Part shown: in pieces, positions 34,251-56,011 of the stretch
Layout: each line of letters begins with the position of its first letter
Numbering within the stretch: position 1 is the stretch's first letter
NCBI GenBank assembly: GCA_016930295.1
Contig: JAFGHE010000043.1
Coordinates: forward strand, 1 to 58,523
DNA from: Sedimentisphaerales bacterium
GTDB lineage: Bacteria; Planctomycetota; Phycisphaerae; Sedimentisphaerales; SM23-30
DNA length: 58,523 nt
Direction of reading: 5' to 3'
Position numbers and translations under genes: made by a program
The notes under the pieces: generated by a model
What the model was told of the DNA's origin: nothing
Seen by the model: the letters and a program-made list of their open reading frames with translations, nothing else
Databases searched by the model: none

Positions 34251-34997
34251 TCAAAATTCATTTTCCTCTCCAGATTTTCCAAGTTCAGCCGCTTTGACAA
34301 TGCCGTTCTGGTCCGGTAAATAATCAAGAATTAAATTACTAAAATCCCTGGTAGCCGAACGGACTGAATTTTCTGAGACGGAGCTTAACTGGACCTGGGC
34401 CACATACCGGGCCGGATCGCCGGCTATATTAGGAGTACGCCAGCCTACCCCGGAAAATACACTCTCATCATCTGTTAACCTGCCGTTAACTATATAAAAA
34501 TTTAGTACTACCAGCTCTTCGTATTCAGGTACTGGCAGATGGAAACGGTGTAGAAGGCATGGTATCTCCAAGCCACTATTGGAAAACTCCACCGCCTGGT
34601 CGGTCCTATTTAATATCCACCCTTGGGCCGGATAACATATCTGGGGCTGATGGCCTATCATAGTCCGCGGCCGGGCAGTAAAGGCAATGTATATATTGAT
34701 CCATTGGTTGGTTCCCCTCTTTATATATATGCGACTTAAAAAATCATCATTTTTGGCAACCTCCTGAATATTTATAGGTATCGGAACTTCCTTACCGATC
34801 CATTGGCCTATCTCCATAGGAAACTCATTCAATGCCATAGGCAAGGTTATAATATTTTCGTTAATGCCTTGCAGATAGCCGGCTACTGAGCGATAGGTAG
34901 CGCCTGAAAATATCAATAACAGGACCACAACCGGCCATATCCATTTACCAGATTTCGGTGGATCTGTTTCTAAAGCCATATTGGTAAAATTTTCCAT
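34251..34997 (-). CDS. epsI: EpsI-family exosortase-associated protein
   Basis: After an N-terminal TM it has 'MIGHQPQICYPAQGWIL', matching the family's H-x-P-x-x-C-[YL]-P-x-x-GW core. The 'YVAQVQL' tail and 248-aa size also fit. Confidence 0.75.
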   Translation of the reverse strand: MENFTNMALETDPPKSGKWIWPVVVLLLIFSGATYRSVAGYLQGINENIITLPMALNEFPMEIGQWIGKEVPIPINIQEVAKNDDFLSRIYIKRGTNQWINIYIAFTARPRTMIGHQPQICYPAQGWILNRTDQAVEFSNSGLEIPCLLHRFHLPVPEYEELVVLNFYIVNGRLTDDESVFSGVGWRTPNIAGDPARYVAQVQLSSVSENSVRSATRDFSNLILDYLPDQNGIVKAAELGKSGEENEF

Positions 34998-36379
34998 AAT
35001 ATCTATATTTAACCTAAACCATAAATTTTTTTATTTGTTAGTTACCAGCCCCGAAGGGTACACTTGAATCGCTTTAAATAAATCAGATACTGACATATCA
35101 GTACCAGAATTATTATCTATATTCACTATTTTTTCTATAAATAGTATGCCTCTATACTTACCTGTTTGTTTTAAGTCTTTTCCAAAAATATATTTATAAT
35201 TAAACCTTTTACATATATACCCTATCAGAATTCTAATCTGTTAATATATAATGAATTACAAAATCATCATATCAACTCATATATCCTGATGAATTACTAC
35301 CATTATAAACTTTTTACTCAATATAATTGTATGCATGTAATCATACAGCAGGGGCCAAAATATAATAAATTGAGGTCGCTAAATCAATATAAATGGCCAT
35401 ATAAAGAATAATCGCCTCTTTATTATATCTTCTTGATGCCAACCCGCATTTTTCTTGGGGACCTGTGACACACTGTGGCAAGGACCAAAACCAAATATGT
35501 TAACCTTCCGATAATAAAAAGGTTAAAACTTGATAGGAATTTCAGTCTTTTCATATTATTTGAATTATACAACTAAATTTCACTGAAACTATAGCCGCCG
35601 ATAACCTTGCCAAGTATAATCACTATAATATGATATATCCTACTAATCAACCATCAATAACCCCGAAGTGCCCTACACAGCCATCGGCCGCAACCTAAAA
35701 ATTAATCATAAATTTAAAATTAGAAAACAGTTAAACCAGAGAAATGCATGTAATCCATGGTTCAAAAAGAAGTTATAACAAATAGCTATTTTGTATAAAC
35801 ATAACTTTTGGAAATATTAACATAAACACAAAAAAGCCTTTTTTATTGCAATTATCACTAAATATTTCGATCAACATAGTCCGATAAGATTTATTTTAAA
35901 TTAGCATTCCTAACAATTTTATTATATCCAGACCTGTTTATAATTTATTTATTAATTCAAATTTATCTAAACTATGTAAAATAACAAGCTTAACTCTAAA
36001 TTCCTCTTAGGTCCACAATTAGTATATTGTCATGAATTTCTGGATAGGTATTTTCTCTTTGAGTGATTAGTGGCTGACATAATCACCTAATATATTGTAA
36101 AAATTGGAGTTATTGATAATTTAATGTTATCCCGGATAAAAAAAAACGAGTCAATCCATGATAAAAAATAAACAATCGAATTTGCCAACACATGATTTGT
36201 ATGTTAAATTGGATAAGTGAAGTAATATAGGAAATTATGGGTACCCGAAGAATATTTCTTTATTTGAAACAGTAATACTAATTTCACTGAGATTTATACA
36301 ATCTCAACCTAACATCGTATCTACTGTTTAAAATAAGTTACAACTATGAAATAAAGTCCGTCAAAAATGGAGACAAGAA
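34998..36379. promoter_or_regulatory. 1.4-kb AT-rich non-coding divergent region between epsI and the giant gene
   Basis: No ORF of 60 aa or more occurs on either strand. Hand counts of two 60-nt lines (35881.. and 35941..) give 15/60 and 9/60 G+C, against about 24/60 for a typical coding line. A GGAG lies 7 nt before ATG 36380. Confidence 0.5.
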
Positions 36380-39300
36380 ATGCATCCCGTCCAAAATAAG
36401 TTTCCACGTCAGACCACTATTCTATTTCTGATATCACTTGTTATCTCATTATTGTTTACCCAGCAGCTTTTAAGCGAAGTTGGAAGTAATTATATAGAAC
36501 AATTTGGTATTACCTGGACTTTCAACAAAAATATCACAACAGATGGTAGTGGGGATACCTATCAATATGGAACATTTGTAAATGGCGACTACTGGGTTGT
36601 TGGACCCGTAGTTCTTATAGATATTAGTCCAAATTCAACTATGCAAGAGACATATGATAGAGTTATAAATGGATCCATGATTAATCCTGATCCATTAGAT
36701 CAGAGTTCACAAGGCTATGACAGTGAAATGTATGCCTGGGCTAGTACAACTACTAGAAATCATCCTGAATGGAGAAGTTATAGTGAAGCAAAAAATGTAG
36801 CCAGAAAAAATAATGCTCCAATTAATGCAACCAATCCATTAATAATTCAACAAAATTCTTCCCTTGTTTCCGCAATAAGCAAAACTAATCCCGATAGAGC
36901 CATTCTGCAAACAGCAGCAATTCTTACGATTCTTGAATCTGTTCCACCTGATAATAGCTTTCGTCCTTCTTACTCCAGTACCGATAAATCAATTCCACAT
37001 ACACTCTCCGATATCAATTATTCAGCTCTCAGAACCTTAACTCCGACGGCACATGCCATGTCTTTCGCAACGGCTGAAAGGCATATTGAACGACCCTGGA
37101 TTGATCATATACCTGATTTTCGCGCCCGTTATCATCACCCAGAAGATAATATGGAGGATTATTCCAGAGATTTCTCTCAGGTCGCTGGAGATATTGCTTT
37201 ATTATTGAATCTAAATTATTCAAATGCACAGAAACAAACTCTATTGATTAGGTTCCTCCAATTAGGAATAGATAATTATGCTGTAAGTCTAGCAGGAGCA
37301 TCATTATCTGGAGGGCAATGGCCAGGACGTGAAGGGCAAAATATGGGTAGAAAACTGCCCATAGTTTTCGCGGGAAAAGTCTTTAATGATACTGATATGC
37401 TCAACATTGGGACATGGAAACAACAGGGAGATCCTACATTTCAGGAAGATGTGCAATTCTGGGTCGTATCTCAAAGTGATGTCGGAAGAAATCTTGTTGG
37501 GGTAAATACAAGTAATCCTGTTGAATACACAGCAGACCTTGTCGGATTCCCTGAGTGGGGGTCAAGACATCTGGGACCCGATGCTGACATCTCCCGTGAT
37601 AATGCTGATATAAATGCCAGTTATCGAGATATTTGTGCCGTAGGATTAAATGCTCACGCATTAGTTGCACTGATAATGGACTTTAAGGAAGAATGGGACA
37701 ACGACACATTTTTCGATTACATGGACAGATGGTACGGATGGACACATGGAGTCGGGGGTACTCAAGTATCAACTGTTTTTACCAGAGAAATGTGGGACCA
37801 ATATCGTGCGGATTATGGTCCTGTTTGGCCTGATACAACCTATTCTCCACCCTCACTGAATATCACCATAAATGGAAACGGGTCCGTTACTAAAAATCCC
37901 GACCAATCTGAATATAATCCTGGAGATAATGTTACCATTGAAGCACTTCCCGAGCAAGGTTATATTTTCAGTTCATGGAGTGGAGATCTATTCAGTAACA
38001 ACAATCCCGTAACTCTGACTATGAATTCGACCATGAATATTACGGCAAGCTTTGTAGCTCAAACAACTGATTCCTTAGTCGGGCACTGGCCTCTCGATGA
38101 AACAACCGGAACGGTTGCAGCTGATCTTTCTGAGTCAAATAACCACGGCATCCTCCTGAATGGAGCTGGCTTTGATGGAACCCCGGGTATAATTAATAAC
38201 GCATTACGTTTTGATGGCAATAATGATGCCGTACAAATTTCAACAGTAAATTGGAATCTTTACAGAGGTACCATCTCCTTGTGGGCCTATGCCGATAACC
38301 TGACGGGTACTCTGTATCTTTTTGGCCATACCATAGGTTCCTGGAGCAACAGATTACAGCTTTATATGGATGATGGACATCTGGGCCTGGGACTCGGTGA
38401 CTCACACACTACTGCTACAGATATATTCAACATGGTAACTCATCAATGGGTCCACATCGCTTTGGTGTGGAACGGTACGAATTATATCGTTTATGTTAAC
38501 GGAACGGCCCGCGCTAATGGTACGTATACCGGTTTAACAAGTTTTGAAAGCTATGCCGATATCGGAAATAACGGGAATAATACCGACCGTGCCCAGGCTT
38601 TCAACGGCCTTATAGATGAAGTGCGAATTTATAACCATGTTCTGGATAACAGTGAAATCCTGGCTCTTTACGAGCAGGGGTCATCAACGACCACCTATAC
38701 CATATCCGCGTCTGCCGGACAGGACGGCTCGATATCACCCTCCGGCACGATGTCGGTAACAGCAGGTGAAGATAGAACGTTTACCTTTACACCCGATACG
38801 GGTTATCATATTGAGAATGTTGTCGTAGATAATGATCCCCAGGGTGCTATATCCAGTTATACCTTCAATAATATTAATGCTAATCACACAATTTCTGTCA
38901 CGTTTGCAATCAATACGTATAGCATCACAACCACTGCCGACGCCGGCGGAATTTTCTTCCCCAACGGTGACATCGTCGTTGACCATGGAAGTAATCAGCC
39001 CTTTACCATTATTCTGGACGATGGTTATTATATCACCGATGTGCAGGTGGATGGTGTCTCACAGGGAACCATTAGTAATTATACATTCTACAACGTTACT
39101 GCCGATCATACGATTTCCGCAACGTTTGCCAGCGCATCTTACACGATTGCCGCCTCCGCCGGTAATGGAGGAAGCATCGATCCAAGCGGCGAAATAAATA
39201 TTGCGCATGGAGCTAATCAGCCCTTTACCATTGCCGCTGAAAACGGTTATTATATCGAAGAAGTAAAGGTAGATAATATTCCACTTGACACAGTTCCTCA

Positions 39301-42300
39301 AAATGCGACAGGCTTTGACTATATATTTACTAATGTCACGGCCGGACATACGATTACAGCCACCTTTGAAGCGGTTACATTTACAATCACACCGCTGATC
39401 AATACCGGGGGTACGACAAGTCCGTCCGATGCCATATCGGTAAACGCCGGAAATGATTTCACCTTTACCTTTACACCTGATACCGGGTATTATATTACCG
39501 AGGTTTTAATCGATGGGGTATCGCAGGGGCTTCTAAGCAGCTATACCTTCAATAATGTCAATTCCAATCATACGATTGAAGCCCGTTTTTCTAACATGCA
39601 TACTATCCGAACCATGCAGGATAATGGAGTCAGTATATCACCCGCCGGTATCATAAATGTAAGTGCCGGCTCCAGTGAAACATTTACTATCGAAGCAAAT
39701 CCGGGCTATCGCATCAGCGACGTTCTGGTTGATGGTCAGTCACAGGGACCTGTCTCCGGCTATACATTTGACAATATAAACGAAAATCATATTATCCGGG
39801 CTATATCTGCCGAGGCGAGCTATACGATTTCTGCCACTGCCGAGGTAGGTGGCAATATTGATCCTGCAGGTCAGGTTCCGGTTAATGCCGGCTATAATAT
39901 ACCTTTTACTATTACTCCAAATACAGGTTATGATATTGACAACGTATCGGTTGATGGAGTCTCACAGGGCGCTATATCCAGTTATACATTTAATAATGTC
40001 AACGAAAATCATACGATTACAGCCGACTTTACTATCAGGAAATATACTATTACCCCCCATAGCGACGGGAATGGAACCATCTATCCCAATAGCGCCGTTG
40101 AAGTAAATCACGGGGGCTCTCGGGCATTCACTATTGCTCCTAATACCGGCTATCGTGTTGACGACGTAAAGGTTGACGGCGTTTCTCAGGGAAGCATAAC
40201 CAGCTATACCTTCAATAATGTTACTGCCAATCACACCATTTCAGTAACATTTACCTTAAAAACCGTGACTATTATCGCCAGCGCCGGCAACGGGGGATCG
40301 ATTGATCCCAGCGGCTCGATAGAAGTACCGTACGGCTCCCCGTATACATTTACTATTAGTCCCGACACAGGACAATCGATTGTAAAAGTAGAGGTAAATG
40401 GTGTCTCGGTCGGTAATGTGTCAACCTATACGTTTGAGAATATTATCGAAAATCAGACCATTACCGCCTTCTTTGATAATAATACGTATACTATCTCTGC
40501 CCAGGCTGAGGTGGGAGGCAGTATCACCCCGGCCGGCTCTGTATTCGTTACCCACGGCGAAGATAAGACGTTTAATATTAATCCGGAAAACGGCTTTAAA
40601 ATCGCTAATGTCAGAGTAGACGGTACTGCTCAAGGCGCCGTTAGCAGTTACACGTTCAATGATGTCACGGCCAGTCATACCATCCTGGCATTGTTCACAC
40701 CGGACACCTATTCCATATCCGCCAGCGCCGGTGCCGGAGGATCGATTTCTCCTGAAGGGACAATCCAAAGCGAGAGCGGCTCTAACCGATCTTTCAGCAT
40801 AACACCGGATAATGGTTATCATATTGAGAATGTTGTCGTAGATGGTATTTCTCAGGGAACTCTGACGAGTTATACCTTTAATAACATTAATGAAAATCAT
40901 ACTATTACTGTCAGTTTTGCCAAAAATACCTATACTCTTACCTCAATTGCCAGCGATGGTGGTACGATCTCACCTTATCCCACGATCGTAGTGGATCATG
41001 GAGTAAATCAAACCTTTACCTTCGCAGCATACAACGGCTATCATATCTCGGATGTAAAAGTGAACGGTATCTCACACGGTACCATCACTACCGGCACGTA
41101 TACATTTTACAATATTACGAATAATCAAACTATCGAAGTCCATTTTGCCAAGAATGTTTACACTATTAACGCTAATGCCGGTGATGGTGGAATGATCAGT
41201 CCCAGCGGGACACTGGAAGTCCTGTATGATACCGATAAAGCCTTTACTATTACACCGGATTCTGATAGAAATATTCTGGATGTAAAGGTTGATGGCGTAT
41301 CCCAGGGAATTATCACCTCGTATACCTTCAGTAATATCTCTGAAGATCACACCATTACAGCTATATTTGAACTGCAAAGCTATATCATTGACGCTCACGC
41401 TTCCTCGGGCGGAACTATAACACCGGCCGGTTCCGTACCCGTCAGCCACGGTACCGATCAGTCATTCAATATTACTCCAAATACGGGACACCATATTACC
41501 GATGTTATTATTGACGGGAACTCCCAGGGAGCTATCAGTAGTTATACCTTCAACGACGTAACTATAGATCATACCATTGAAGCCGAATTTACTATTGATA
41601 CGTACACGATTACCGTCTCCAGCAATGATGGTGGTCACATTTCAGAGGAGGGTTCCATACAAGTGGAATACGGAGCCAGCCCGACGTATACCATTATCCC
41701 TGTTGACGGATACTTCATTAGTGATGTCTTAATCGATGGAGTCTCTCAGGGTGCTATAAACATCTATAGCTTTAGTAATATCAGTGATAATCACTCACTG
41801 GCGGCATCTTTTGCTGTGAATCAGTATACGATTAATGCCCAGGTGAATCCCTTGGGTGCCGGCTCTATTGATCCCAGCGGTGAGACTCTCGTCGATTACG
41901 GCCAGAGTCAAACATATACGATCTCTCCTGCGGCGGGGAGTATCCTCCTTGATGTTCAAATCGATGGTACTTCCGCGGGACCCGTTAGTCAATACACCTT
42001 CTCAAATGTGAAGGCGCCCCATGATATTGTTGCTATATTTACACAAAACACGTACAGTATTTCTGCAAATGCCGGGCAGGGAGGAACTATCTCTCCCAGC
42101 GGCGTTGTATCGGTCGTCCCCGGTGAAAGCCAGGTCTTTAATATCACAGCCGAACCCGGCAAACAGATTGTCGATGTCCTGGTTGACGGCGTTTCCGTGG
42201 GACCGGTTAACAGTCATAGTTTTAACCATGTCAACAGCAACCATACTATTTCAGTCTTTTTTACCAGTGATTCCTATAACATAACGGCCAATGCCTCTCC

Positions 42301-45823: not shown

Positions 45824-45828
45824 CCAAA

Positions 45829-48156: not shown

Positions 48157-48161
48157 ATATC

Positions 48162-49901
48162 ATGCAAACGGAATCGATCGGACAAATATTATTACGCGAT
48201 ACCAGCCTGACACCGGAACAACTGGATTCGGCGCTCCGCCTCCAGCAGACACGCCGACCCTGTCCCGAACTGGGCCAGATCCTTATCGAAAAAGGATATA
48301 TCAGTCCCGATCAACTCTGTCACGCTCTGGCCCAACAGTGGAATATTCCCTACCTGGACACCATTACCCCGCAACAGCTTAAACACAACAGTGTACGAAA
48401 ACTTCCTCTCGACTTTCTAAAAAAACAACAGCTTCTGCCAATCATCGATCAAAATCAACACCTGATGATTGCCATGGCCGACCCCTTAAACATCGAAGCC
48501 TATGATGCCGTACTCAATATCCTCCGGACGTACTGTCCACGCATACTATGCCCACCAACAGAAATTGATAAGGCAATCAGCCGGTGTTATTATCAAGAAC
48601 TCGGCGGGGCGGACCAAAAAAATCACAATAATAATCCTGAGACAGACTCCCCCACTCCGAAAGACCCGCATGAGGACCTGCTCAATATCTCCGGACATGC
48701 CCCCATCGTCAAACTGGTTAACACCATCCTGTTCAAGGCCATTAACAGCCGGGCCAGCGATATCCATATCGAACCCTATGAACAGGAAGTAAAGGTTCGC
48801 TATCGGATCGACGGTGTCCTCCATGACAATACCTCTTTGCCGCCGGACCATGTGGCTCCGCTGATTTCACGATTGAAAATCATGGCCAATCTCAATATCG
48901 CTGAAAGACGCCTGCCCCAGGACGGCCAAAGCCGTATCAAAATCGGTGATAAGGAACTGGATATCAGGGTATCCATTATCCCCATCTCAGGAGGTGAACG
49001 TGTAGTGCTCCGCCTGCTCGACAAAGGCGGCCCGGACTTGAATATGAAAAAATTAGGATTCGCCGACGATTGCATGAATCAATTCCATCAACTCATTCAT
49101 TCTCCACATGGCATCATCCTGCTCACCGGCCCGACCGGCAGCGGGAAAACCACCACCCTGTATTGCGCTATTAATGAACTCAACCGTAACGAATGCAATA
49201 TCCTCACGGTGGAAGACCCGATTGAATATCAACTGCCCGGCGTCGGGCAAATGCAGGTAAAACCAAAAATAAATCTCACCTTTGCCAATTGCCTGCGACA
49301 TATCCTCCGCCAGGACCCGGACGTTATCATGATCGGCGAAATCCGCGATGTCGAAACCGCCGAAATCGCCATTCATGCCTCACTGACCGGCCATCTGGTG
49401 TTCAGCACCCTGCATACCAACGATTCAGCGTCCGCCATTACCCGACTGATCGATATGGCTATCGAGCCCTACCTGATTTCTTCATCGCTCACGGCTGTCA
49501 TGGCCCAGAGACTGCTGAGAGTTATATGTCCCCACTGTAAAACCCCCTGCCGGACAGAGTATAATATAAGCGAACTTGCCGATTATGCCACCCGCCAAAG
49601 TCCCTGGGAGGGTCAGGTATTTATCGGCTCCGGATGTAACCAGTGCAGCCATACCGGCTATTGGGGCAGAACCGCCATCGCGGAATTACTCATCATCGAT
49701 GACACCATCAGGGAATTGATCATTAAAAGAAGCCCGGCCCATAGCATCAAGGAGCAGGCCGTAAGTCACGGCATGAGAACCCTGCGCCAGGATGGACTGC
49801 GCCAGGCATTGACCGGTCAAACAACCATTGAGGAAGTTCTGCGGGTCACCCAGGACTGTATCCCTGTTAATACTACCAATAAAGAAAATGTGGAAATCTA
49901 A
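48162..49901 (+). CDS. gspE: Type II secretion ATPase GspE
   Basis: It has Walker A 'GPTGSGKTTT', 'ILTVEDPIEY', 'IMIGEIRD', His box 'LVFSTLHTND' and the tetracysteine 'CPHC...CNQC'. A T2SSE_N-type N-terminal domain is present. Confidence 0.95.
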   Translation: MQTESIGQILLRDTSLTPEQLDSALRLQQTRRPCPELGQILIEKGYISPDQLCHALAQQWNIPYLDTITPQQLKHNSVRKLPLDFLKKQQLLPIIDQNQHLMIAMADPLNIEAYDAVLNILRTYCPRILCPPTEIDKAISRCYYQELGGADQKNHNNNPETDSPTPKDPHEDLLNISGHAPIVKLVNTILFKAINSRASDIHIEPYEQEVKVRYRIDGVLHDNTSLPPDHVAPLISRLKIMANLNIAERRLPQDGQSRIKIGDKELDIRVSIIPISGGERVVLRLLDKGGPDLNMKKLGFADDCMNQFHQLIHSPHGIILLTGPTGSGKTTTLYCAINELNRNECNILTVEDPIEYQLPGVGQMQVKPKINLTFANCLRHILRQDPDVIMIGEIRDVETAEIAIHASLTGHLVFSTLHTNDSASAITRLIDMAIEPYLISSSLTAVMAQRLLRVICPHCKTPCRTEYNISELADYATRQSPWEGQVFIGSGCNQCSHTGYWGRTAIAELLIIDDTIRELIIKRSPAHSIKEQAVSHGMRTLRQDGLRQALTGQTTIEEVLRVTQDCIPVNTTNKENVEI

Positions 49902-51117
49902 GCAAACAACCGGAAAAGACCTGGAAGAGATATCGTCAACACCGGGTGATACCTATAACTACCCTGACAGTGACACGGATTCTCTGATAGCTGCGCCACC
50001 GGCCGATTATGACGACCCGACGCACAACAGTAATCCTCACACACCCGCATCATCAGACAAAAAAAAGAATTCCGATTATATTCTTCATATAAAACCTTCC
50101 GATCTCTGCACTGCAACCCGCCAGTTGGCAACTCTAATCCGGGCCGGCATGCCGCTCCTGGAGGCTCTGGCCGCCTTAGCGGAGCAGTTCCAGAAGCATC
50201 CGCTCGCTGAGGCCTTCTCGGATATTCACGAACAGGTAAAAACCGGACACAGCCTCGCCGCTGCTTTAAGTAATTATCCCACGGTCTTCTCGAATTTATA
50301 TGTCAATATGGTCAAGGCCGGCCAGGAAAGCGGCACGCTCGAAGATATCCTCTTTAAACTGGCTCAATATCTCTACCGACGATCCCGCCTTACCAGTAAA
50401 ATCAAGGCCGCACTGACCTATCCCCTCTTTATGAGTATCGCGGCCCTAAGCGTGATTATATTCCTCATGACCTTTGTCATCCCCGGCATTACCCGGATAT
50501 TCCTGGATATGAATCACCAGTTGCCCTGGCCGACCACCTTACTGATCACTATCAGTGATTTTTGCAGCTCACATTTCCTCTTTATCATCATAGCACTGGG
50601 CGCCGCCATTGTTTCAGCCTCATTCTACCTGAAATCAGAATCCGGAAAAATCAACTGGGACCGATTCTCTCTCAAACTGCCCTTGTTCGGCAGCCTGATG
50701 CTCAAAACCGAAATGATCCGATTCTGCCGGACTCTCGGTATCCTGCTCTCCAGCGGTATTACCATGACCAGGGCCATCCTGATTGTCAGGGCCGTTATAC
50801 AAAATACGTTTATTGCCGATAAAATCAGCCTGATAACCGAAGATATTAACAAAGGACTGAACCTGTCATCAGCCATAAAAAAACTCGGCCTGTTTCCCCC
50901 TATTCTTTATCATACTCTCTCCATCGGGGAAAAAAGCGGAAACCTCGAAGAACAACTCAGTAACTTCGCCGAGTCCTGTGACGAAGAAATAGAAATCCAG
51001 ATCCGCGCAATCACGTCACTGATTGAACCGGTCATCTTATTATGTATGGGTTTTATTATCGGATTTATCGTTCTGGCGCTGCTACTTCCCATTTTTGAAA
51101 TCAATCAGATGCTTTAA
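49888..51117 (+). CDS. gspF: Type II secretion inner-membrane platform protein GspF
   Basis: It has two T2SSF repeats ('LATLIRAGMPLLEALAAL', 'LSIGEKSGNLEEQL') and three TM segments. I placed the start at ATG 49888 ('MWKSKQ'), which overlaps the gspE stop by 14 nt; the ORF-track start is 49828. Confidence 0.9.
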   Translation: MWKSKQTTGKDLEEISSTPGDTYNYPDSDTDSLIAAPPADYDDPTHNSNPHTPASSDKKKNSDYILHIKPSDLCTATRQLATLIRAGMPLLEALAALAEQFQKHPLAEAFSDIHEQVKTGHSLAAALSNYPTVFSNLYVNMVKAGQESGTLEDILFKLAQYLYRRSRLTSKIKAALTYPLFMSIAALSVIIFLMTFVIPGITRIFLDMNHQLPWPTTLLITISDFCSSHFLFIIIALGAAIVSASFYLKSESGKINWDRFSLKLPLFGSLMLKTEMIRFCRTLGILLSSGITMTRAILIVRAVIQNTFIADKISLITEDINKGLNLSSAIKKLGLFPPILYHTLSIGEKSGNLEEQLSNFAESCDEEIEIQIRAITSLIEPVILLCMGFIIGFIVLALLLPIFEINQML

Positions 51118-51129
51118 GGGAGAATAATC

Positions 51130-51555
51130 ATGAAAAAAACTCAAAATTACAAAGGATTTACCCTATTGGAACTTATGATCGTTATCGTTATCCTCGGACT
51201 CCTGGCCACTATTATCATGCCCAAAATCCTGGGCCGGCCCGAACAGGCCCGGCGCGCCGTCGCTGAAATCGAAATTAAAAACCTGGAAGCGACCCTGGCT
51301 CTCTTCAAAACTGACACCGGCCGGTTCCCTACCACCTCCGAAGGACTGGGTGTCCTGGTCAATAATCCCGGTATCTCCGGTTATGCACCCGATGGCTACC
51401 TGGATAAAACACCCAAAGACCCCTGGGGTAATAACTATATCTATATCTGCCCCTCAGTGCAGGGTAAATACTTTGACCTGGAATCCTATGGAAAAGACGG
51501 CGAAGACGGCGGCACCGGCGAGGACGCCGACATCGAAAGCTGGAATATCGAATAA
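51130..51555 (+). CDS. gspG: Major pseudopilin GspG
   Basis: The prepilin motif 'KGFTLLELMIVIVILGLLA', 'DPWGNNYIY' and the Ca-site-like 'SYGKDGEDGGTGEDADI' are all present. AGGGAG lies upstream. Confidence 0.95.
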   Translation: MKKTQNYKGFTLLELMIVIVILGLLATIIMPKILGRPEQARRAVAEIEIKNLEATLALFKTDTGRFPTTSEGLGVLVNNPGISGYAPDGYLDKTPKDPWGNNYIYICPSVQGKYFDLESYGKDGEDGGTGEDADIESWNIE

Positions 51556-51562
51556 ATACCCC

Positions 51563-51988
51563 ATGAAAAAGCACCCCTCAAAAAAAAAGGCTTTCACCTT
51601 CATCGAAGTGCTGGCCGCTCTGGCTATTGTAGCCATGGCCCTGGTGGCCCTGATCCGATTGCAGTTGGTAAGTATCGACATCACCGATAAAACCGACCTG
51701 GCCAATCACGCGGCGTTGCTGGCCGATGAAAAAATCTCCCAGTTCCTGACTCATAACATTCTTGAACCGGGAACCACCCGTGGCTCCACGAATTATAAAG
51801 AACACGATTTTCATTGGCAAACGGAAGTCTCCAGTGTCATTCCATCTGAAATGGATCCAGACGACATGGACCGGCTCCACCGCCTGCGCGTGGATGTCAA
51901 CTGGCAGCAGGGACGCCATAAAAAATATTTCAACCTGACAACATACACCCTGAACCATAATACCCATGAAATCAAAACCCGGAAATAA
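51563..51988 (+). CDS. gspI: Minor pseudopilin, GspI-like
   Basis: 'KKAFTFIEVLAALAIVAMALVAL' is a prepilin-type leader. Its 142-aa size and the blocks 'ANHAALLADEKISQFL' and 'LHRLRVDVNWQQ' resemble GspI. I placed the start at ATG 51563; the ORF-track start at 51350 overlaps gspG. Confidence 0.7.
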   Translation: MKKHPSKKKAFTFIEVLAALAIVAMALVALIRLQLVSIDITDKTDLANHAALLADEKISQFLTHNILEPGTTRGSTNYKEHDFHWQTEVSSVIPSEMDPDDMDRLHRLRVDVNWQQGRHKKYFNLTTYTLNHNTHEIKTRK

Positions 51989-52646
51989 TGCCTTTACTCT
52001 CCTGGAGATTCTGGCCGCCCTGGCCATCATGATGATCGTTATATCGATCGTCTATGGTACCTTTAAGGCGGCCTCACACTCGGCCCAACAGGGTAAAACA
52101 ATTATTTCCGATATCCGACAGGGACAATCTCTTTTGGAGAAAATGACCCGGCAAATTCGCTGTGCTTACGCCGACTCCATACCCATAGAAACCGAACCTC
52201 ACTCAGCCGGGGACGAAATACAACAGCAATCGCCTGTATTTTTCTACGCCAATAACCGTGCCCCGGACGACGTGGTGTTGAAATTTATCACCACCGCCCC
52301 TTTATTCAATGACCCTGAATTACCCCGAGGGCTCTTTAAAGTCGCTTATCGATACCAGAAGGATAAAGAGGGCGGCTCCTTATATTATGCCCAGCAGCCC
52401 TGTTTCGAGCTCTCAGAGGATAATCCCCGGCAGGACACCTGGCACCCTCTGGCGCAAAATATTTACGCTTTGCAATTAAGTTTCTTCGATGAAAATAACT
52501 GGCACGATACCTGGCCCGATAAAAATCAGAGACTCCTGCCCCATGCCGTAAAAATCAGCTTAGAGCTGGGGCCCGACAATACGACAACCCGGACTTATAA
52601 CACAATTGTCACCACAAATTGCTATCATAATCCACATGAAAATTAA
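51966..52646 (+). CDS. gspJ: Minor pseudopilin, GspJ-like
   Basis: 'NAFTLLEILAALAIMMIVISIV' is a prepilin-type leader. Its 226-aa size and position between the I-like and K-like genes fit GspJ. Confidence 0.7.
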   Translation: MKSKPGNNAFTLLEILAALAIMMIVISIVYGTFKAASHSAQQGKTIISDIRQGQSLLEKMTRQIRCAYADSIPIETEPHSAGDEIQQQSPVFFYANNRAPDDVVLKFITTAPLFNDPELPRGLFKVAYRYQKDKEGGSLYYAQQPCFELSEDNPRQDTWHPLAQNIYALQLSFFDENNWHDTWPDKNQRLLPHAVKISLELGPDNTTTRTYNTIVTTNCYHNPHEN

Positions 52647-53664
52647 AATAAAATATCATCCGGCCAAAGGATTCGTCCTGATAACTGTCCTGTTCATCAT
52701 TGCCCTGCTGACGGCACTGCTGGTAGAGTTCAATTACGCCTCTCGTACCAGTGTCCATCAGGCGGACAACTTTCGTGCACGCCTCCAGGCCCTCTATTGC
52801 GCCCGGGCCGGCCTGCAAATCGCCATCGCCGTCATCAATCAGAATCCGGATATCCAAACCAATGAAACACTCCGGAAAATGCTCTCTGATAATAAACAGA
52901 TCGATATCGACTCCGGACAATGCCACATTACTATTCTTGATGAAAACGGCAAACTAAATCTGAACCACCTCAAAACCGGCGTCAATCAGTTCGACAAAAT
53001 ACGCGTGGACCAGGTCCTCCGACTCCTGGATCATCTCAATAGCCAATACTCTACCGAGGTTCCCTTCAGCTATTCTCTGGTACCGGCCGTCATCGACTGG
53101 ACCGATAAGGATGATCTTATTACCATGTTACCTCATGTCAGCCATCATAATATGGGCGTCGAGTCCGCCTGGTATGAAAATGAATCCAGAATCGGCTTTT
53201 GTAAAAACAAACCCCTGCAGACCGTGAATGAACTGCTGCTGGTAAAAGACGTAACCCCTTTCCATCTCTATGGCGATTCCATGTCTAACCATAACAGACC
53301 GGACCCACGCCCCGGACTGGAACAATTTGTAACCGTGTACGGCAACGGCTTGATCAATATCAATACCGCACCCAGACTCGTTATCCAAAGTCTGGCCGAT
53401 TTCATGGACCCGGCCCTGACGGAAATCATTTTAAACAGACGCCAACTGCAACCCTTCGCTTCCCTGGATGAACTGGTCCGACTGCCCGGCCTGTCATTAG
53501 CACGGATTTCAATCCTCAAACAATATCTCACGACCAAACCCGACGAATACTATTATAAAATCACGGCCCGGGGCAAGGTCGACTCCGGAATCATAACCAT
53601 TGAAGCTGTTATTAAAAAAACCTTAAACCGTGAAGCGGAAATAATACTCTATCACGAAATATAA
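52636..53664 (+). CDS. gspK: Minor pseudopilin GspK-like
   Basis: It has a non-canonical leader 'KGFVLITVLFIIALLTALLV' with no Glu at +5, as in GspK. 'GKLNLNHL', 'INTAPRLVIQSL' and the HhH-like 'FASLDELVRLPGLS' also fit. I placed the start at ATG 52636. Confidence 0.8.
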   Translation: MKIKIKYHPAKGFVLITVLFIIALLTALLVEFNYASRTSVHQADNFRARLQALYCARAGLQIAIAVINQNPDIQTNETLRKMLSDNKQIDIDSGQCHITILDENGKLNLNHLKTGVNQFDKIRVDQVLRLLDHLNSQYSTEVPFSYSLVPAVIDWTDKDDLITMLPHVSHHNMGVESAWYENESRIGFCKNKPLQTVNELLLVKDVTPFHLYGDSMSNHNRPDPRPGLEQFVTVYGNGLININTAPRLVIQSLADFMDPALTEIILNRRQLQPFASLDELVRLPGLSLARISILKQYLTTKPDEYYYKITARGKVDSGIITIEAVIKKTLNREAEIILYHEI

Positions 53665-53804
53665 ACACCCGGAACGGGAACCCCGGCCAGACCCATACCG
53701 GAATCCTGCTTAAAGTGATTATAGAAATGTCCGATATATATAATAAACAAGGATTTACACTAAAAGAACCTTTTGCGAAAAGATCGCCGAGAGTTCAAAG
53801 GTTA

Positions 53805-53822
53805 CCCCTTTGCAGAAAGGGG
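53805..53822 (+). terminator. Weak hairpin in the gspK-gspL spacer, a possible attenuator or internal terminator
   Basis: The stem is CCCCTTT-GCAG-AAAGGGG (7 bp, 4-nt loop), followed by CTTTAG. The U-tract is poor. Confidence 0.3.
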
Positions 53823-53913
53823 CTTTAGCGTGTTATAAAATCTAATGTCTGATAATGTCATAGATTCTTTTATTCGCAATCCTCTACGCATAATATAAAA
53901 AGGAACGTATCGG

Positions 53914-55380
53914 ATGACCAAACGAGCAATTGGTATTGATATAAATTCTGATAAAATGATTGCCGTGCAGATGGCCCGGCGGGGTGATACCCTCTGCCTG
54001 GAAAAAACCTGCACCCGCCCCTCACGCAGGGAAGAAGACACTCCTTCGGAATTTATAGCCAACCTGTTCACCCAACACGGGTTTGACCGGAGGGCCGCTG
54101 CCGCTCTGGCTATGCCCCATAACCAGATATTTTTCAAAACCACAGACTCATCCGCTCCCGAACAAGATAAAATCAGCGATAACCCGGACTCTCCATATCA
54201 GAACGATTTTCCCGTATTATCAGACCAACGATTACTCGATTTCGGCTCTGACCGGCAACTCGATAATAAACATAAATCGCTGGTTACCGCCACCAGCCAA
54301 TCCTCCCTCAAAGAGCTTCTGGAAACAACACGAGTCAGTGGGTTTCGCTACGAACTCATCGAGGCCCCTGTTTTCGCCCTGGTCGCTGCGGTCAAAACCA
54401 ATCATCCCGATATCACCGCTGATTATGCCATCATTATTTTCAGTGATTCTTCCCATGTTATCATTACTATTACTCATAAAAACGAGATTATCACAGTTAG
54501 AAATATACCCCAATGGGATACCCCGCCCGCCGAAAACCAGAATGAACACAACAATTATGATAACCTTATACGCGAAATCGAAATGACCTGGCGCTCGGAA
54601 ATGGGCCGTAAAATCCCCGATAACACTCCGTTAGTACTCGCCGGCCAACATACAACCTCTCCTCAACTCCGGAATATCCTGAGGGATAACCTGAATTGCC
54701 AAATCATTCTGTATGATCCGCTGGTACACATTCAATGTAATGATAACAAACATATCGAACCGGAAATCTGCATCGCTCAGGGACTGTCCCTGCGCTACTT
54801 ACATCCGGAAAAATATCCCGGCGCTAATTTTATCCATACCCTCAAAAAAGACAGCCGAAAATGTGTTAATGCCAAAACTCAGAAATATCTAGGACTGTTC
54901 CTCATAACCACAATAGCCCTGGTCTATCTCACCGGATTACTCATCCAAAAAAATCGGCTGGAGGGCCAATATCAGAAAATTAAAAACGAAATAAAACAAA
55001 CGTTCCACCAGGCCCTGCCGCAGGAGAAGAATATTGTTAACGAACTGGCCCAACTCGATGCCGCCCTGGCCAGTCAGCGCAAGGCATTCGACCTGTTCGA
55101 AGCCTCTGCCATAAATTCCGTAAAACCGCTGGATATCCTGCATACGATCTCTGCCCATACTCCGGAACAGCTTAATCTCAGGATCAACAATATTCTTATC
55201 ACTCAGCAGGCAGCTCAGTTATCCGGACAATGTGCCTCGTCAACCATCGCTTACAAATGGCAAAGGATATTACAGGAAATCCCCGGCTTCGATAATGTTA
55301 ATGTGTCCGGACTCGAAAAACTACCTGACTCGGATGAAGTACAGTTTTCCGTTTCCCTTACCCTGAAGTCAACGTATTAA
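53914..55380 (+). CDS. gspL: GspL-like assembly protein (PilM-type actin-like cytoplasmic domain + TM + periplasmic domain)
   Basis: It starts like PilM ('AIGIDINSDKMIAVQMARRGD'), has a single TM 'YLGLFLITTIALVYLTGLLI', and then a coiled-coil and ferredoxin-like tail. It sits in the canonical L slot. Confidence 0.7.
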   Translation: MTKRAIGIDINSDKMIAVQMARRGDTLCLEKTCTRPSRREEDTPSEFIANLFTQHGFDRRAAAALAMPHNQIFFKTTDSSAPEQDKISDNPDSPYQNDFPVLSDQRLLDFGSDRQLDNKHKSLVTATSQSSLKELLETTRVSGFRYELIEAPVFALVAAVKTNHPDITADYAIIIFSDSSHVIITITHKNEIITVRNIPQWDTPPAENQNEHNNYDNLIREIEMTWRSEMGRKIPDNTPLVLAGQHTTSPQLRNILRDNLNCQIILYDPLVHIQCNDNKHIEPEICIAQGLSLRYLHPEKYPGANFIHTLKKDSRKCVNAKTQKYLGLFLITTIALVYLTGLLIQKNRLEGQYQKIKNEIKQTFHQALPQEKNIVNELAQLDAALASQRKAFDLFEASAINSVKPLDILHTISAHTPEQLNLRINNILITQQAAQLSGQCASSTIAYKWQRILQEIPGFDNVNVSGLEKLPDSDEVQFSVSLTLKSTY

Positions 55381-55489
55381 GAGACTCACGTTAAAAGGTG
55401 ATATATACAGCTAAAAACATTGCTTCTGACCCGGAATCAACGGTCTATAACACCTTTGACGCCGGCGTCAAAATAATCAGGAATTATCC

Positions 55490-56011
55490 ATGAGAAAAAT
55501 TACCCGCAGAGAACATCGTATCATAGTGTTTCTGGCAGTCCTTGTCTGTCTCTGGTCACTCTATGGATTTCTGATCAGCCCTGTCCGCACCCGAATTGAA
55601 ACATTAAACCGGGTCATCCCCGAAAAAATCCAGGCCCTGGACAAACTCAAAAGCCAGACAAAACAATACCTGGACCTGGAAAATCAATTCAGCCAAATCC
55701 ACGCAAAAATAGCCTCTCAGCCGGCTGATTTCGACCTGATGCCCTTTCTGGAAAACCTTACCGCCAATTCCCGGCTCGCACCGCCGCCCATGACCCAGCA
55801 AAGTCATGATTTAAACGATAACTACACCGAGACCGTGGTTTCCATGGAGTTAAAAAACATCACCTGGGAGCAGCTTATCCAATTCCTGCTCCCCCTGAAC
55901 TCGGCCCAGGCCTTCATTAATATCAAGTCCATGAATATCCAGAAAAACATGGAAAATCCCGACCTCCTCAATGTCAGCCTGCATATAGCCCACATCAAAA
56001 AAACCATCTAA
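55490..56011 (+). CDS. gspM: GspM/PilO-like assembly protein
   Basis: This 173-aa protein has an N-terminal TM 'IIVFLAVLVCLWSLYGFLI', a coiled coil and a small alpha/beta domain. It is the last gene of the gsp row. Confidence 0.55.
   Translation: MRKITRREHRIIVFLAVLVCLWSLYGFLISPVRTRIETLNRVIPEKIQALDKLKSQTKQYLDLENQFSQIHAKIASQPADFDLMPFLENLTANSRLAPPPMTQQSHDLNDNYTETVVSMELKNITWEQLIQFLLPLNSAQAFINIKSMNIQKNMENPDLLNVSLHIAHIKKTI

What the first reader, a model, noticed from the sequence alone, without database searches (positions are those of the whole stretch)
34251..56011. Candidate integrated envelope system: exosortase-EPS locus, giant repeat protein and a dedicated T2SS in one block
The giant gene is transcribed divergently from epsI. 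After a 438-nt spacer it is followed on the same strand by a complete colinear gspC-D-E-F-G-I-J-K-L-M set. No unrelated genes intervene across ~56 kb. The giant protein has only a Sec signal and no known OM-translocation or anchoring signal, and a T2SS exports folded periplasmic proteins. This makes it the obvious candidate cargo of that T2SS, with the tailored EPS as the matrix that holds it. Gene-adjacent, single-cargo T2SSs are known; the Hxc system of Pseudomonas aeruginosa with LapA is one example. A cargo of this size and repeat architecture, physically coupled to an exosortase EPS locus, is not a described system to my knowledge. The exosortase could alternatively act on a non-canonical signal in this protein.
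Basis: inference. Interest (0 to 1): 0.7.

Follow-up and report, generated by a model that had tools for sequence, protein, structure and literature searches.

The report
Tagless giant protein beside T2SS
The 2,699-residue protein belongs to a widespread planctomycete family of surface proteins usually encoded between a polysaccharide/exosortase locus and the type II secretion operon, but this copy has lost the C-terminal anchoring tag and the neighbouring protease gene, so it is probably secreted rather than tethered.

Summary
The window holds an exosortase-type EPS locus (96-34997, minus strand, ending in epsI), a divergent 8.1-kb gene (36380-44479), a 438-nt spacer and gspC-D-E-F-G-I-J-K-L-M (44918-56011). 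The contig is from a Phycisphaerae/Sedimentisphaerales-like planctomycete.

The layout is conserved. Among 80 related genomes, 23 of 39 loci with enough flank show EPS genes/epsI, then divergently a large protein, a ~250-aa CPBP protease of the myxosortase family, and the same T2SS operon.

The large proteins share the giant's C-terminal 650 residues (Ig-like domain, sialidase-like propeller, beta-sandwich ending THF[TS]) under variable heads. In about 79% of homologues a sorting tag follows: Gly-rich linker, invariant Cys, LPY 16 residues later, TM helix, basic tail.

The window copy ends 31 residues after THFT, with no tag, no CPBP gene and no remnant. Its sister lineage and L132 are also tagless; L004 shows decay.

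The giant's N-terminal domain family is otherwise encoded inside orthologous EPS operons.

Best reading: a T2SS-exported, EPS-directed protein that has lost its tether. A dedicated single-cargo T2SS is not supported. All mechanism is inferred.

The parts
96..34997 (-). Exosortase-type EPS biosynthesis locus. Contains a priming transferase, Wzc, NTP-transferase::exosortase, two NadE-like genes, two acyl-CoA ligases, AsnB, DUF362, Wzx, PLP decarboxylase, an ACP-like ORF, acetyltransferases, PssD/PssE, glycosyltransferases, a deacetylase, FemAB-like, Wzy, FrhB-like, a pyruvyl transferase and EpsI.
   Evidence: NCBIfam and Pfam scans. No Wza/OPX gene and no PEP-CTERM-like ORF were found in the window.
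4105..6099 (-). Exosortase fused to an N-terminal nucleotidyltransferase plus a left-handed beta-helix domain (664 aa).
   Evidence: PF09721 195.7 bits; TIGR02602 145 bits against a cutoff of 105.6. The best subtype models (XrtD, XrtW, XrtA) are below their cutoffs.
34251..34997 (-). EpsI (DUF3485), the exosortase-associated periplasmic protein, divergent from the giant gene.
   Evidence: An epsI homologue lies on the minus strand upstream of gspC in 25 of 39 related loci.
34998..36379 (.). AT-rich (about 28% GC) divergent intergenic region, presumed to be a shared control region.
   Evidence: No Rfam match, no ORF of 50 aa or more, and only short repeats. Its function is untested.
36380..44479 (+). 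Giant secreted protein, 2,699 aa, 291 kDa, pI 4.2.
36380..36472 (+). Sec-type signal peptide (aa 1-31): basic n-region, hydrophobic core, then LLS|EV.
   Evidence: Read from the sequence. The AF2 model shows a helix at residues 10-30. No signal-peptide predictor was available.
36473..37849 (+). N-terminal 'head' domain (aa 32-490). It belongs to an uncharacterised, widespread secreted family. The fold is a beta-sandwich followed by an alpha-helical domain.
   Evidence: 702 homologues, carrying T9SS, dockerin or InlB-B tails. AF2 pLDDT 85. No PDB sequence or fold match. Stand-alone copies lie inside orthologous EPS operons and in a row of GH44, Pel9A-like and GH123 genes.
37856..38659 (+). One InlB B-repeat (aa 493-560) and a LamG/concanavalin-like lectin domain (aa 612-760).
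   Evidence: Pfam PF18998 and PF13385.
38726..42505 (+). 17 tandem InlB-B-like repeats of about 74 aa (aa 783-2042).
   Evidence: jackhmmer self-search; PF18998.
42506..44407 (+). Conserved C-terminal 'chassis': an Ig-like domain, a six-bladed sialidase/BNR-like beta-propeller and a beta-sandwich C-domain ending ...RFQTTHFTQY.
   Evidence: Homologous to 33, 42 and 44 of 45 T2SS-adjacent large proteins respectively. AF2 pLDDT 88. Foldseek matches to sialidases at E about 1e-10.
44408..44476 (+). Disordered Lys/Pro-rich tail (aa 2677-2699). It occupies the place where about 79% of homologues carry the Gly-linker/Cys/LPY/TM/basic sorting tag.
   Evidence: pLDDT about 30. The tag HMM matches only positions 3-75 of 131. 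Comparison with homologues.
44480..44917 (.). 438-nt spacer at the position where most relatives encode a ~250-aa myxosortase-family CPBP protease. No remnant is present here.
   Evidence: Three-frame translation. No CPBP HMM hit anywhere in the window. No plus-strand terminator-like site in the spacer.
44918..56011 (+). Type II secretion operon gspC-D-E-F-G-I-J-K-L-M. GspD has a lipobox and GspE has an MshEN c-di-GMP-binding N-terminus.
   Evidence: The same gene order occurs in 80 related genomes.

Best explanation
The giant gene is this organism's copy of a modular surface-protein family conserved across Phycisphaerae. I call the shared C-terminal part the 'chassis'. It consists of an Ig-like domain, a sialidase-like propeller and a beta-sandwich ending THF[TS], carried under variable glycan-directed heads.

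How the family probably works (inferred):
1. The protein is exported by Sec.
2. It is held in the inner membrane by a C-terminal tag: a Gly-rich linker, an invariant Cys, LPY 16 residues later, a TM helix and a basic tail.
3. The tag is processed by the adjacent myxosortase-like CPBP protease, possibly together with EpsI/exosortase.
4. [quoted passage not shown] The 291-kDa protein is therefore most likely still exported by the adjacent T2SS, but released or held non-covalently. Candidates for holding it in the EPS are its LamG domain, its 17 repeats, its propeller and its head domain. The head domain belongs to a family that is otherwise encoded within the same type of EPS operon.

The T2SS is the lineage's general system with a conserved flagship client. 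It is not a private one.

Shown here: orthology, synteny, presence or absence of the tag and the CPBP gene, and the domain folds. Inferred: every transport, processing and EPS-binding step.
For: Synteny:
- gspC-M keep the same order in 80 GTDB species-level Phycisphaerae loci.
- A full CPBP gene lies immediately upstream of gspC in 51 of 69 loci.
- A tag-bearing chassis gene lies upstream in 37 of 65 loci.
- epsI lies on the minus strand upstream in 25 of 39 loci, and all three features occur together in 23 of 39.
- In L013 and L021 the tag protein and the CPBP gene lie together at the 3' end of the T2SS operon; L018 has only the CPBP gene there and L022 only the tag protein. Proximity therefore survives rearrangement.

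Orthology:
- The giant's Ig-like, propeller and C-domains hit 33, 42 and 44 of 45 of these proteins.

Tag:
- The Cys-to-Pro spacing is 16 residues in 16 of 19.
- 110 of 140 representative homologues carry the tag.

CPBP protease:
- PF02517 match. Best NCBIfam models are MrtP, Mrt_core, MrtC, MrtS and MrtJ.
- The EExxxR, FxxxH and HxxxN motifs are conserved.

Loss in the window lineage:
- No tag or CPBP gene in the window.
- L004 has a stop right after THF, a Cys-to-Tyr change in the tag remnant, and CPBP fragments.
- The sister lineage L082 is tagless and lacks the CPBP gene but still sits next to gspC.
- L132 repeats the whole window layout with a tagless protein.

Precedent from the literature:
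- MYXO-CTERM and GlyGly-CTERM proteins need the T2SS.
- TraA variants lacking the tag cysteines are secreted to the medium (PMC11980579; 10.1101/2023.06.07.544157).

EPS link:
- Stand-alone head-domain genes lie inside orthologous EPS operons in L086, L088 and L089.
- Other chassis heads are Pel9A-like beta-helices or LamG domains.

Assembly:
- The 8.1-kb ORF is intact.
- A separate Logan contig is identical over 44865-49156. By coordinate arithmetic it should start near window position 43104.
Against: - No experiment exists for any member. T2SS dependence is argued from neighbourhood and from analogy with other phyla.
- Sampling centred on the chassis rather than the T2SS shows the adjacency is not obligatory. 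Among the loci with at least about 1.2 kb downstream, 12 tag-bearing genes had neither a CPBP gene nor a T2SS nearby, 4 had a CPBP gene but no T2SS, and one tagless gene (L091) had no T2SS.
- The window's sister lineage L082 has no EPS locus or epsI beside the gene.
- From my own knowledge, 291 kDa is far larger than any documented T2SS substrate.
- NCBIfam's Mrt and Cys-CTERM models do not reach their cutoffs. JDVT-CTERM scores only E = 0.005.
- Four loci pair the tag with EpsI plus an exosortase instead of a CPBP protease. The processing enzyme is therefore uncertain.
- Loss of the tag could equally mean loss of function.
Confidence: 0.5

Rival explanations
1. The family's tag is mainly an exosortase/EpsI signal, that is, a PEP-CTERM-like variant with LPY at the start of the helix. 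The conserved epsI neighbour is then the sorting factor. The CPBP protease and the T2SS are accessory or coincidental. In the window, EpsI and the exosortase serve other substrates, because the giant has lost the signal.
For: - In L113, L118, L119 and L120 a tag-bearing chassis gene is directly adjacent, on the same strand, to EpsI plus a stand-alone exosortase, with no CPBP gene.
- epsI is the divergent neighbour in 25 of 39 T2SS loci.
- LPY sits at the TM boundary, where PEP sits in PEP-CTERM.
- NCBIfam already holds models for CPBP proteases associated with exosortase systems (TIGR03008 and the XrtE fusion TIGR04162), and the neighbouring CPBP proteins hit them weakly.
Against: - No PEP-CTERM or VPLPA-type model hit the tags at E <= 1.
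- The CPBP gene is a more frequent neighbour than epsI (51 of 69 against 25 of 39).
- The invariant Cys is typical of CPBP-processed signals (10.1101/2023.06.07.544157).
- This reading does not explain the conserved T2SS adjacency.
Confidence: 0.2
2. The neighbourhood is inherited gene order without functional coupling. The T2SS is a housekeeping system, and the giant is an adhesin or enzyme that reaches the surface by another route or stays periplasmic.
For: - The T2SS operon occurs without the chassis gene in many relatives, for example L002, L012, L014-L016, L034, L043, L065 and L081.
- Many chassis genes lie away from any T2SS.
- The protein is very large for a T2SS substrate (my own knowledge).
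Against: - The order persists at only 48-66% GspD identity.
- The pair relocates yet stays beside the operon (L013 and L021; partly L018 and L022).
- The window holds no alternative export signal: no T1SS-, T5SS- or T9SS-type C-terminus.
- Related Cys-tag systems are T2SS-dependent (PMC11980579).
Confidence: 0.15
3. The T2SS, or its secretin, is next to the EPS locus because it helps to export the polysaccharide. The giant is only an EPS-processing enzyme encoded between the two.
For: - No Wza/OPX exporter gene is present in the window.
- Secretins of T2SSs are reported to be necessary for slime secretion in myxobacteria and cyanobacteria (PMC12475490).
- GspE carries a c-di-GMP-binding MshEN domain.
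Against: - The contig ends right after the priming transferase, so an OPX gene may lie beyond it.
- EPS adjacency is absent in the sister lineage L082 and in 14 of 39 loci.
- The most consistent neighbour of gspC is the CPBP protease, which is a protein-sorting enzyme.
Confidence: 0.08
4. The locus is decaying. After losing its tag and protease, the giant is a non-functional relic.
For: - L004 shows pseudogenisation of the tag and the CPBP gene.
- The tail is a short disordered stretch.
Against: - The 2,699-codon ORF is intact.
- The tagless state is shared with a sister lineage at only 66% GspD identity, which also keeps a 1,553-aa ORF.
- 18 further tagless clusters were found among 140 representatives, 19 counting the window's own.
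Confidence: 0.07

Closest known systems
MYXO-CTERM / myxosortase MrtX / T2SS pathway of Myxococcus xanthus (Haft 2023 preprint 10.1101/2023.06.07.544157; PMC11980579)
   Same: - Relatives of the giant carry a tripartite C-terminal signal with an invariant Cys, a TM helix and a basic tail.
- A CPBP (Rce1-like) protease whose best models are myxosortases is encoded next to them.
- A T2SS is implicated.
- In that system tagless variants are secreted rather than anchored, which parallels what I infer for the window copy.
   Different: - Here the phylum is Planctomycetota.
- There is one adjacent client rather than about 35 dispersed ones.
- The Cys is separated from the helix by a fixed spacer of about 16 residues ending in LPY.
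- All Mrt models score below their cutoffs.
- The protease and the client lie physically beside the T2SS operon and beside epsI.
- The window copy lacks both the tag and the protease.
JDVT-CTERM / MrtJ two-gene cassette (10.1101/2023.06.07.544157)
   Same: - One client gene is immediately followed by its CPBP protease.
- The tag has a Gly-rich run before a single Cys and a conserved residue inside or at the helix.
- The JDVT-CTERM model hits weakly (E = 0.005).
   Different: - The hit is below the cutoff (16.5 bits against 27).
- The conserved motif is LPY rather than DP.
- No T2SS or EPS linkage is described for JDVT-CTERM.
PEP-CTERM / exosortase (EpsH) / EpsI systems in EPS loci (PMC1569441)
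   Same: - An exosortase and EpsI are embedded in a large EPS locus with XrtA-associated acyl-CoA ligase, decarboxylase and amidotransferase.
- Some family members sit next to EpsI plus an exosortase.
   Different: - No PEP motif and no PEP-CTERM model hit.
- The tag has an invariant Cys.
- The window's exosortase is fused to a nucleotidyltransferase.
- The giant has no signal at all.
GlyGly-CTERM / rhombosortase / T2SS (VesB of Vibrio cholerae; PMC3237569, PMC12889589)
   Same: A C-terminal tag is processed by an intramembrane protease before T2SS delivery to the surface.
   Different: The protease family (rhomboid) and the motif are different.
Hxc T2SS with LapA in Pseudomonas aeruginosa
   Same: - The cargo gene is adjacent to a T2SS operon.
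- The secretin has a lipobox, as HxcQ does.
   Different: - Hxc is a second, specialised T2SS alongside the general Xcp system.
- Here the operon is the lineage-wide orthologue and often lacks the adjacent client.
- Whether a second T2SS exists in this genome is unknown.
Shewanella vesiculosa HM13 P49 cluster (PMC6971210)
   Same: - A single major cargo gene is encoded in one cluster with T2SS-like genes and polysaccharide genes (Wza, WecA).
- gspD2 is needed for correct cargo localisation.
   Different: - That T2SS-like set lacks GspC, L, M, H, I, J and N and is a second system.
- The cargo is 49 kDa.
- No exosortase, CPBP protease or C-terminal tag is involved.

Membership tests
Type II secretion system (Gsp) | Secretin GspD with N0, secretin-N and secretin domains | tested here: met
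   TIGR02517 474.5 bits (cutoff 351); PF21305, PF03958 and PF00263.
Type II secretion system (Gsp) | Assembly ATPase GspE, platform protein GspF and major pseudopilin GspG | tested here: met
   GspE 643.8 bits (cutoff 630). GspG 142 bits (cutoff 89). GspF is the best hit at 368.8 bits, below its cutoff of 424.
Type II secretion system (Gsp) | GspC, GspL, GspM and the minor pseudopilins I, J and K | tested here: inconclusive
   Each is the best-scoring family but below its curated cutoff (GspC_delta 92 against 150; GspL 28; GspM 21). Order and positions are conserved in 80 relatives. gspH, gspN and gspO are absent from the window.
Dedicated (Hxc-like) single-cargo T2SS | A separate general T2SS elsewhere in the same genome, with this one serving one adjacent cargo | not testable with these tools
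   The window is the whole 58.5-kb contig. The operon is the orthologue found once in each of 80 related assemblies and often lacks an adjacent client. That argues against a dedicated system but does not test it.
Exosortase / PEP-CTERM EPS system | Exosortase (EpsH family) and EpsI within an EPS locus | tested here: met
   PF09721 195.7 bits; TIGR02602 145 bits (cutoff 105.6); DUF3485 56.8 bits (cutoff 26.1).
Exosortase / PEP-CTERM EPS system | The substrate carries a PEP-CTERM-type signal (motif, TM helix, Arg cluster) | tested here: not met
   The giant ends in a disordered Lys/Pro tail without a TM helix. No ORF in the window has such a C-terminus. Tags of relatives give no PEP-CTERM model hit.
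Myxosortase-type Cys-CTERM sorting (MYXO-, JDVT-, Synerg-, CGP-CTERM) | Tripartite C-terminal signal with an invariant Cys | tested here: not met
   Absent from the window protein. Present in 110 of 140 representative homologues and 37 of 65 T2SS-adjacent loci. Known models are at or below threshold (JDVT-CTERM E = 0.005).
Myxosortase-type Cys-CTERM sorting (MYXO-, JDVT-, Synerg-, CGP-CTERM) | Cognate CPBP/Rce1-like glutamic intramembrane protease | tested here: not met
   No CPBP HMM hit anywhere in the window. Present upstream of gspC in 51 of 69 relatives with catalytic motifs intact; Mrt_core scores 69-86 bits against a cutoff of 100.
Myxosortase-type Cys-CTERM sorting (MYXO-, JDVT-, Synerg-, CGP-CTERM) | T2SS-dependent delivery to the cell surface | not testable with these tools
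   Only gene adjacency is available.
Phycisphaerae 'chassis' protein family (defined here) | C-terminal Ig-like domain, sialidase-like propeller and beta-sandwich ending THF[TS] | tested here: met
   phmmer E-values of 1e-20 to 1e-98 against 33-44 of 45 homologues. AF2 pLDDT 88 and Foldseek sialidase matches at E = 1e-10.

The most novel reading that the evidence does not exclude
Phycisphaerae have an undescribed surface-display pathway. A single polymorphic, glycan-directed protein carries a new Cys...LPY C-terminal signal. It is handled jointly by EpsI/exosortase and a myxosortase-like CPBP protease. It is exported by the general T2SS, and its head acts on or binds the EPS made by the adjacent locus. 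The window and its sister lineages are natural tag and protease deletions that convert the tethered form into a released, matrix-embedded 291-kDa T2SS substrate.
Probability: 0.3. Interest if true: 0.8.

Novelty: new variant of a known kind. Interest (0 to 1): 0.62.

Why it matters
- Planctomycetes are major polysaccharide degraders, and their protein export and cell-surface biology are poorly known.
- A conserved locus joins an exosortase/EpsI EPS system, a myxosortase-like protease, a new Cys-containing sorting tag and the T2SS. It would connect three sorting systems so far studied separately, in a phylum where none has been tested.
- The naturally tagless lineages (window, L082, L132, with L004 as a decay intermediate) act as built-in genetic controls. 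They predict tethered versus released forms of the same protein.
- The uncharacterised head-domain family has 702 hits below E = 0.001 among the 8,000 candidates scored and sits inside EPS operons. It is a candidate new EPS-processing enzyme family.
- If a 291-kDa protein does pass through a T2SS, it would extend the known size range of T2SS substrates.

Tried and rejected
- Riboswitch or other known RNA in the 1.38-kb AT-rich intergenic region or elsewhere: none at gathering thresholds, and none in that region at E <= 1.
- Hidden small gene, tag remnant or CPBP remnant in the 438-nt spacer: none in any frame and no HMM hit.
- PEP-CTERM-like substrates in the window: none.
- PDB relatives of the giant by sequence: none.
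- PDB relatives of the N-domain by profile or fold: only chance-level hits.
- Exact-protein look-up of the window's GspC and of P0452: not on record. P0452 turned out to be an N-terminally truncated call of the window protein itself, so it is not independent evidence.
- Exact DNA search for the tagless junction in JGI metagenomes: no match.
- Counting T2SS loci per genome: not possible with one contig and one genome scan.
- A first regex-based tag classification was too strict and was replaced by an HMM-based one.
- The last contig look-up was made with only a 1-kb flank. The independent Logan contig could therefore be compared only over 44865-49156 and not across the junction.
- Literature search for a prior description in Planctomycetota or Phycisphaerae: nothing found in the searchable library.

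Full report
**1. What is in the window**

The minus strand from 96 to 34997 is one long exosortase-type EPS locus. Its genes are:
- a priming glycosylphosphotransferase and Wzc;
- an exosortase fused to a nucleotidyltransferase/LbH module (4105-6099);
- two NadE-like proteins;
- two acyl-CoA ligases, one above the cutoff of the 'exosortase A system-associated' model;
- a PLP decarboxylase and an AsnB-type amidotransferase;
- an 88-aa ACP-like ORF;
- Wzx, Wzy, several glycosyltransferases, a deacetylase, a FemAB-like protein, an FrhB-like protein and a pyruvyl transferase;
- EpsI, at the end of the locus (34251-34997).

After a 1,382-nt intergenic region of about 28% GC, the plus strand carries a 2,699-codon ORF (36380-44479). 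A 438-nt spacer follows, then gspC-D-E-F-G-I-J-K-L-M (44918-56011). GspD homologues place the contig in Phycisphaerae/Sedimentisphaerales-like Planctomycetota. The best identities are 59-66%, and the window is the whole contig.

**2. Anatomy of the giant (291 kDa, pI 4.2)**

| Residues | Feature | Evidence |
|---|---|---|
| 1-31 | Sec-type signal | |
| 32-490 | N-domain with no Pfam or PDB relative | |
| 493-560 | One InlB B-repeat | |
| 612-760 | LamG domain | |
| 783-2042 | 17 tandem InlB-B-like repeats of ~74 aa | |
| from ~2043 | Ig-like domain | |
| to ~2530 | Six-bladed propeller; Foldseek matches to sialidases at E about 1e-10 | |
| to 2676 | Beta-sandwich whose last strand is THFTQY | |
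| 2677-2699 | 23 disordered Lys/Pro-rich residues | |

There is no TM helix, no PEP-CTERM and no Cys tag at the end.

**3. Synteny centred on the T2SS**

A scan of one genome per GTDB species with a GspD profile returned 80 loci, each from a different Phycisphaerae assembly. All have the same gspC-M order.

Calling ORFs upstream of gspC showed a recurrent pattern: EPS genes and epsI on the minus strand, then on the plus strand a 1,100-2,200-aa protein, a ~250-aa protein and gspC. HMM-based counts are:
- a full ~250-aa gene directly upstream of gspC in 51 of 69 loci with enough flank;
- a large protein with the conserved C-terminus and tag in 37 of 65;
- epsI in 25 of 39;
- all three in 23 of 39.

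In L013 and L021 the large protein and the small protein lie together at the 3' end of the T2SS operon. L018 has only the small protein there, and L022 only the large protein. Genes beyond epsI are Wzx-like flippases, deacetylases and acetyltransferases.

**4. What the neighbours are**

The ~250-aa protein is a CPBP/Rce1-like intramembrane protease (PF02517). Its best NCBIfam models are the myxosortases MrtP, Mrt_core, MrtC, MrtS and MrtJ, all below their curated cutoffs. The EExxxR, FxxxH and HxxxN motifs are conserved.

The large proteins are orthologues of the giant over its last ~650 residues. The Ig-like, propeller and C-domains hit 33, 42 and 44 of 45. Their heads vary:
- the giant's N-domain in five;
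- Pel9A-like beta-helices;
- LamG;
- He_PIG, Big_9 and PKD arrays;
- InlB-B repeats.

After the shared ...ALRFKTTHF[TS] strand they carry:
- a Gly-rich linker;
- GGGC[SA]xS;
- a spacer;
- (E/Y)F(L)LP(Y/F);
- a hydrophobic helix;
- an Arg/Lys-rich end.

The Cys-to-Pro distance is 16 residues in 16 of 19. This is the tripartite architecture of Cys-containing sorting signals. Only a weak JDVT-CTERM hit (E = 0.005) links it to a described model.

**5. The window copy is a tagless derivative**

Its ORF stops 31 residues after THFT. The tag HMM aligns only through the C-domain. No CPBP match exists anywhere in the window, and the spacer holds no remnant in any frame. Relatives show the same state or its onset:
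- L004 (GspD 63% identical) is an intermediate. It has a stop codon right after THF, a recognisable tag remnant with Cys replaced by Tyr and a second stop, and CPBP fragments.
- In a GspD+GspE neighbour-joining tree the window's sister is L082. Its 1,553-aa protein ends HFSQYVLAR*, with no CPBP gene and gspC 756 nt downstream.
- L132 repeats the entire window layout: frhB, pyrT, wzx and epsI on the minus strand, then a tagless 1,871-aa protein, 256 nt, and gspC onward.

In an exhaustive profile search, 140 of the best 150 representatives have the C-domain. Of these, 110 carry the tag, 19 are tagless with short tails (one is the window's own protein), and 9 have other C-terminal extensions. Lengths reach 3,682 aa, so the giant is not the largest.

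An independent Logan contig is 100% identical to the window over 44865-49156. By coordinate arithmetic it should begin near 43104, which argues weakly against a mis-join at the junction.

**6. Caveats from sampling centred on the chassis**

Searching metagenome contigs with the C-terminal region, rather than with GspD, gave a less tidy picture. The counts below are for loci with at least about 1.2 kb downstream; five tag+CPBP loci and four tag-only loci had too little flank to judge the T2SS:

| Tag | CPBP | T2SS nearby | Loci |
|---|---|---|---|
| yes | yes | yes | 8 |
| yes | yes | no | 4 |
| yes | no | no | 12 |
| no | no | yes | 2 |
| no | no | no | 1 (L091) |

The family therefore probably has paralogues away from the T2SS. 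In L113, L118, L119 and L120 the tag-bearing gene is directly flanked on the same strand by EpsI plus a stand-alone exosortase. The tag may thus also be, or instead be, an exosortase substrate. The conserved epsI neighbour may be a sorting factor rather than an EPS enzyme.

**7. Link to the EPS**

The giant's N-domain family has 702 hits below E = 0.001 among the 8,000 candidates scored. Most are ~550-aa secreted proteins with InlB-B, T9SS or dockerin tails.

In three planctomycete contigs the stand-alone gene lies inside an EPS operon with the same repertoire as the window's. That repertoire is FemAB-like, deacetylase, GT2, GT1, Alg14/GT28C (PssD/PssE), a hexapeptide acetyltransferase, an ~87-aa ORF, NadE-like, AMP-ligase and AsnB. 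In an Anaerolineae contig it sits among GH44, Pel9A-like and GH123 genes. This supports a glycan-directed role tied to this EPS type. No activity can be assigned.

**8. Mechanism**

Published work shows the following (10.1101/2023.06.07.544157; PMC11980579):
- MYXO-CTERM proteins are cleaved by the CPBP protease MrtX and need the T2SS to reach the surface.
- GlyGly-CTERM proteins likewise need the T2SS.
- Synerg-CTERM co-occurs with a divergent T2SS.
- JDVT-CTERM clients are encoded next to MrtJ.
- TraA variants without the tag cysteines are secreted to the medium.

By analogy, the family is probably anchored by its tag after Sec export, processed, and moved out by the T2SS. The tagless window protein would then be exported but not tethered. 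Its LamG, repeat, propeller and head domains could hold it in the EPS.

Every step here is inference. The enzyme that reads the tag is unresolved (CPBP protease, exosortase/EpsI, or both).

**9. What is not supported**

The T2SS is not shown to be dedicated. It is the orthologous operon of the whole class and frequently lacks the adjacent client. The genome's T2SS count is unknown. The giant's size is not unique. No paper in the searchable library describes this arrangement in Planctomycetota, and NCBIfam release 20 has no model reaching cutoff for the tag or the protease.

**10. Verdict**

The 'integrated envelope system' idea is largely borne out at the family level, but with a different and richer mechanism than proposed: a lost sorting tag and protease, and a general rather than private T2SS. 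I rate it a new variant of known C-terminal sorting/T2SS systems, with interest of about 0.6.

Noticed in passing
window 45829-46340 (GspD aa 1-171): GspD starts with a lipoprotein-type signal (LLHAGC|Q) followed by a low-complexity, probably disordered linker of about 140 aa before the N0 domain. This makes it a liposecretin-like protein. The AGCQ motif is conserved in the consensus of 26 relatives.
   Followed up: partly
window 48162-48600 (GspE N-terminus): GspE carries an MshEN-type c-di-GMP-binding domain (NF053729 47 bits, cutoff 38; PF05157), with two recognisable 24-residue motifs. This suggests c-di-GMP control of secretion. Relatives L082 and L084 also have MshEN.
   Followed up: partly
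window 4105-6099 and 96-1775: The exosortase is fused to an N-terminal nucleotidyltransferase plus a left-handed beta-helix module. The priming glycosylphosphotransferase also has an LbH-like N-terminal region (aa ~240-320).
   Followed up: no
window 36473-37849; loci L086, L088, L089, L090: The giant's N-domain defines a large uncharacterised secreted family. It has no Pfam model and no PDB fold match, despite an AF2 pLDDT of 85. It is repeatedly encoded inside planctomycete EPS operons and next to glycoside hydrolases and lyases, so it is a candidate new glycan-active enzyme family.
   Followed up: partly
window 44375-44386 (THFT, aa 2665-2668) and all homologues: A near-invariant H-[FY]-[ST] closes the last strand of the C-domain, and Pfam ZU5 hits that domain weakly in L007 and L040. 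It resembles the HFS autoproteolytic site of ZU5/Nup98-type domains. The L004 ORF stops exactly after THF.
   Followed up: no
L113, L118, L119, L120: Tag-bearing chassis genes are directly adjacent, on the same strand, to EpsI plus a 312-344-aa stand-alone exosortase with no CPBP gene. This looks like a dedicated exosortase/substrate cassette for the same tag.
   Followed up: partly
L061 (C-terminus), L133, P0482: Some chassis proteins replace the tag with a different Cys-containing tail, GGGGGGCFIATAAYG...LRxFRD, which continues for a further ~90-110 residues. It may be a different sorting or attachment module.
   Followed up: no
window 34998-36379: The divergent intergenic region is 1.38 kb at about 28% GC. 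It is longer than the roughly 300-900 nt typical of most relatives. It has no Rfam hit and no ORF of 50 aa or more, only short palindromes and an 18-nt direct repeat (36129-36171).
   Followed up: partly
window 96-34997: No Wza/OPX-type outer-membrane polysaccharide exporter is encoded in the window. The contig ends just after the priming transferase.
   Followed up: no
L012, L013, L018 (upstream of gspC): Loci whose full CPBP gene is elsewhere or was not found keep a short ORF upstream of gspC that matches only the C-terminal third of the CPBP model (HMM positions ~164-249).
   Followed up: no
window 56080-58422: Downstream of the T2SS, on the minus strand, lie a xylose-isomerase-like TIM-barrel protein and a GntR-family regulator fused to a solute-binding domain. 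They appear unrelated to the system.
   Followed up: no
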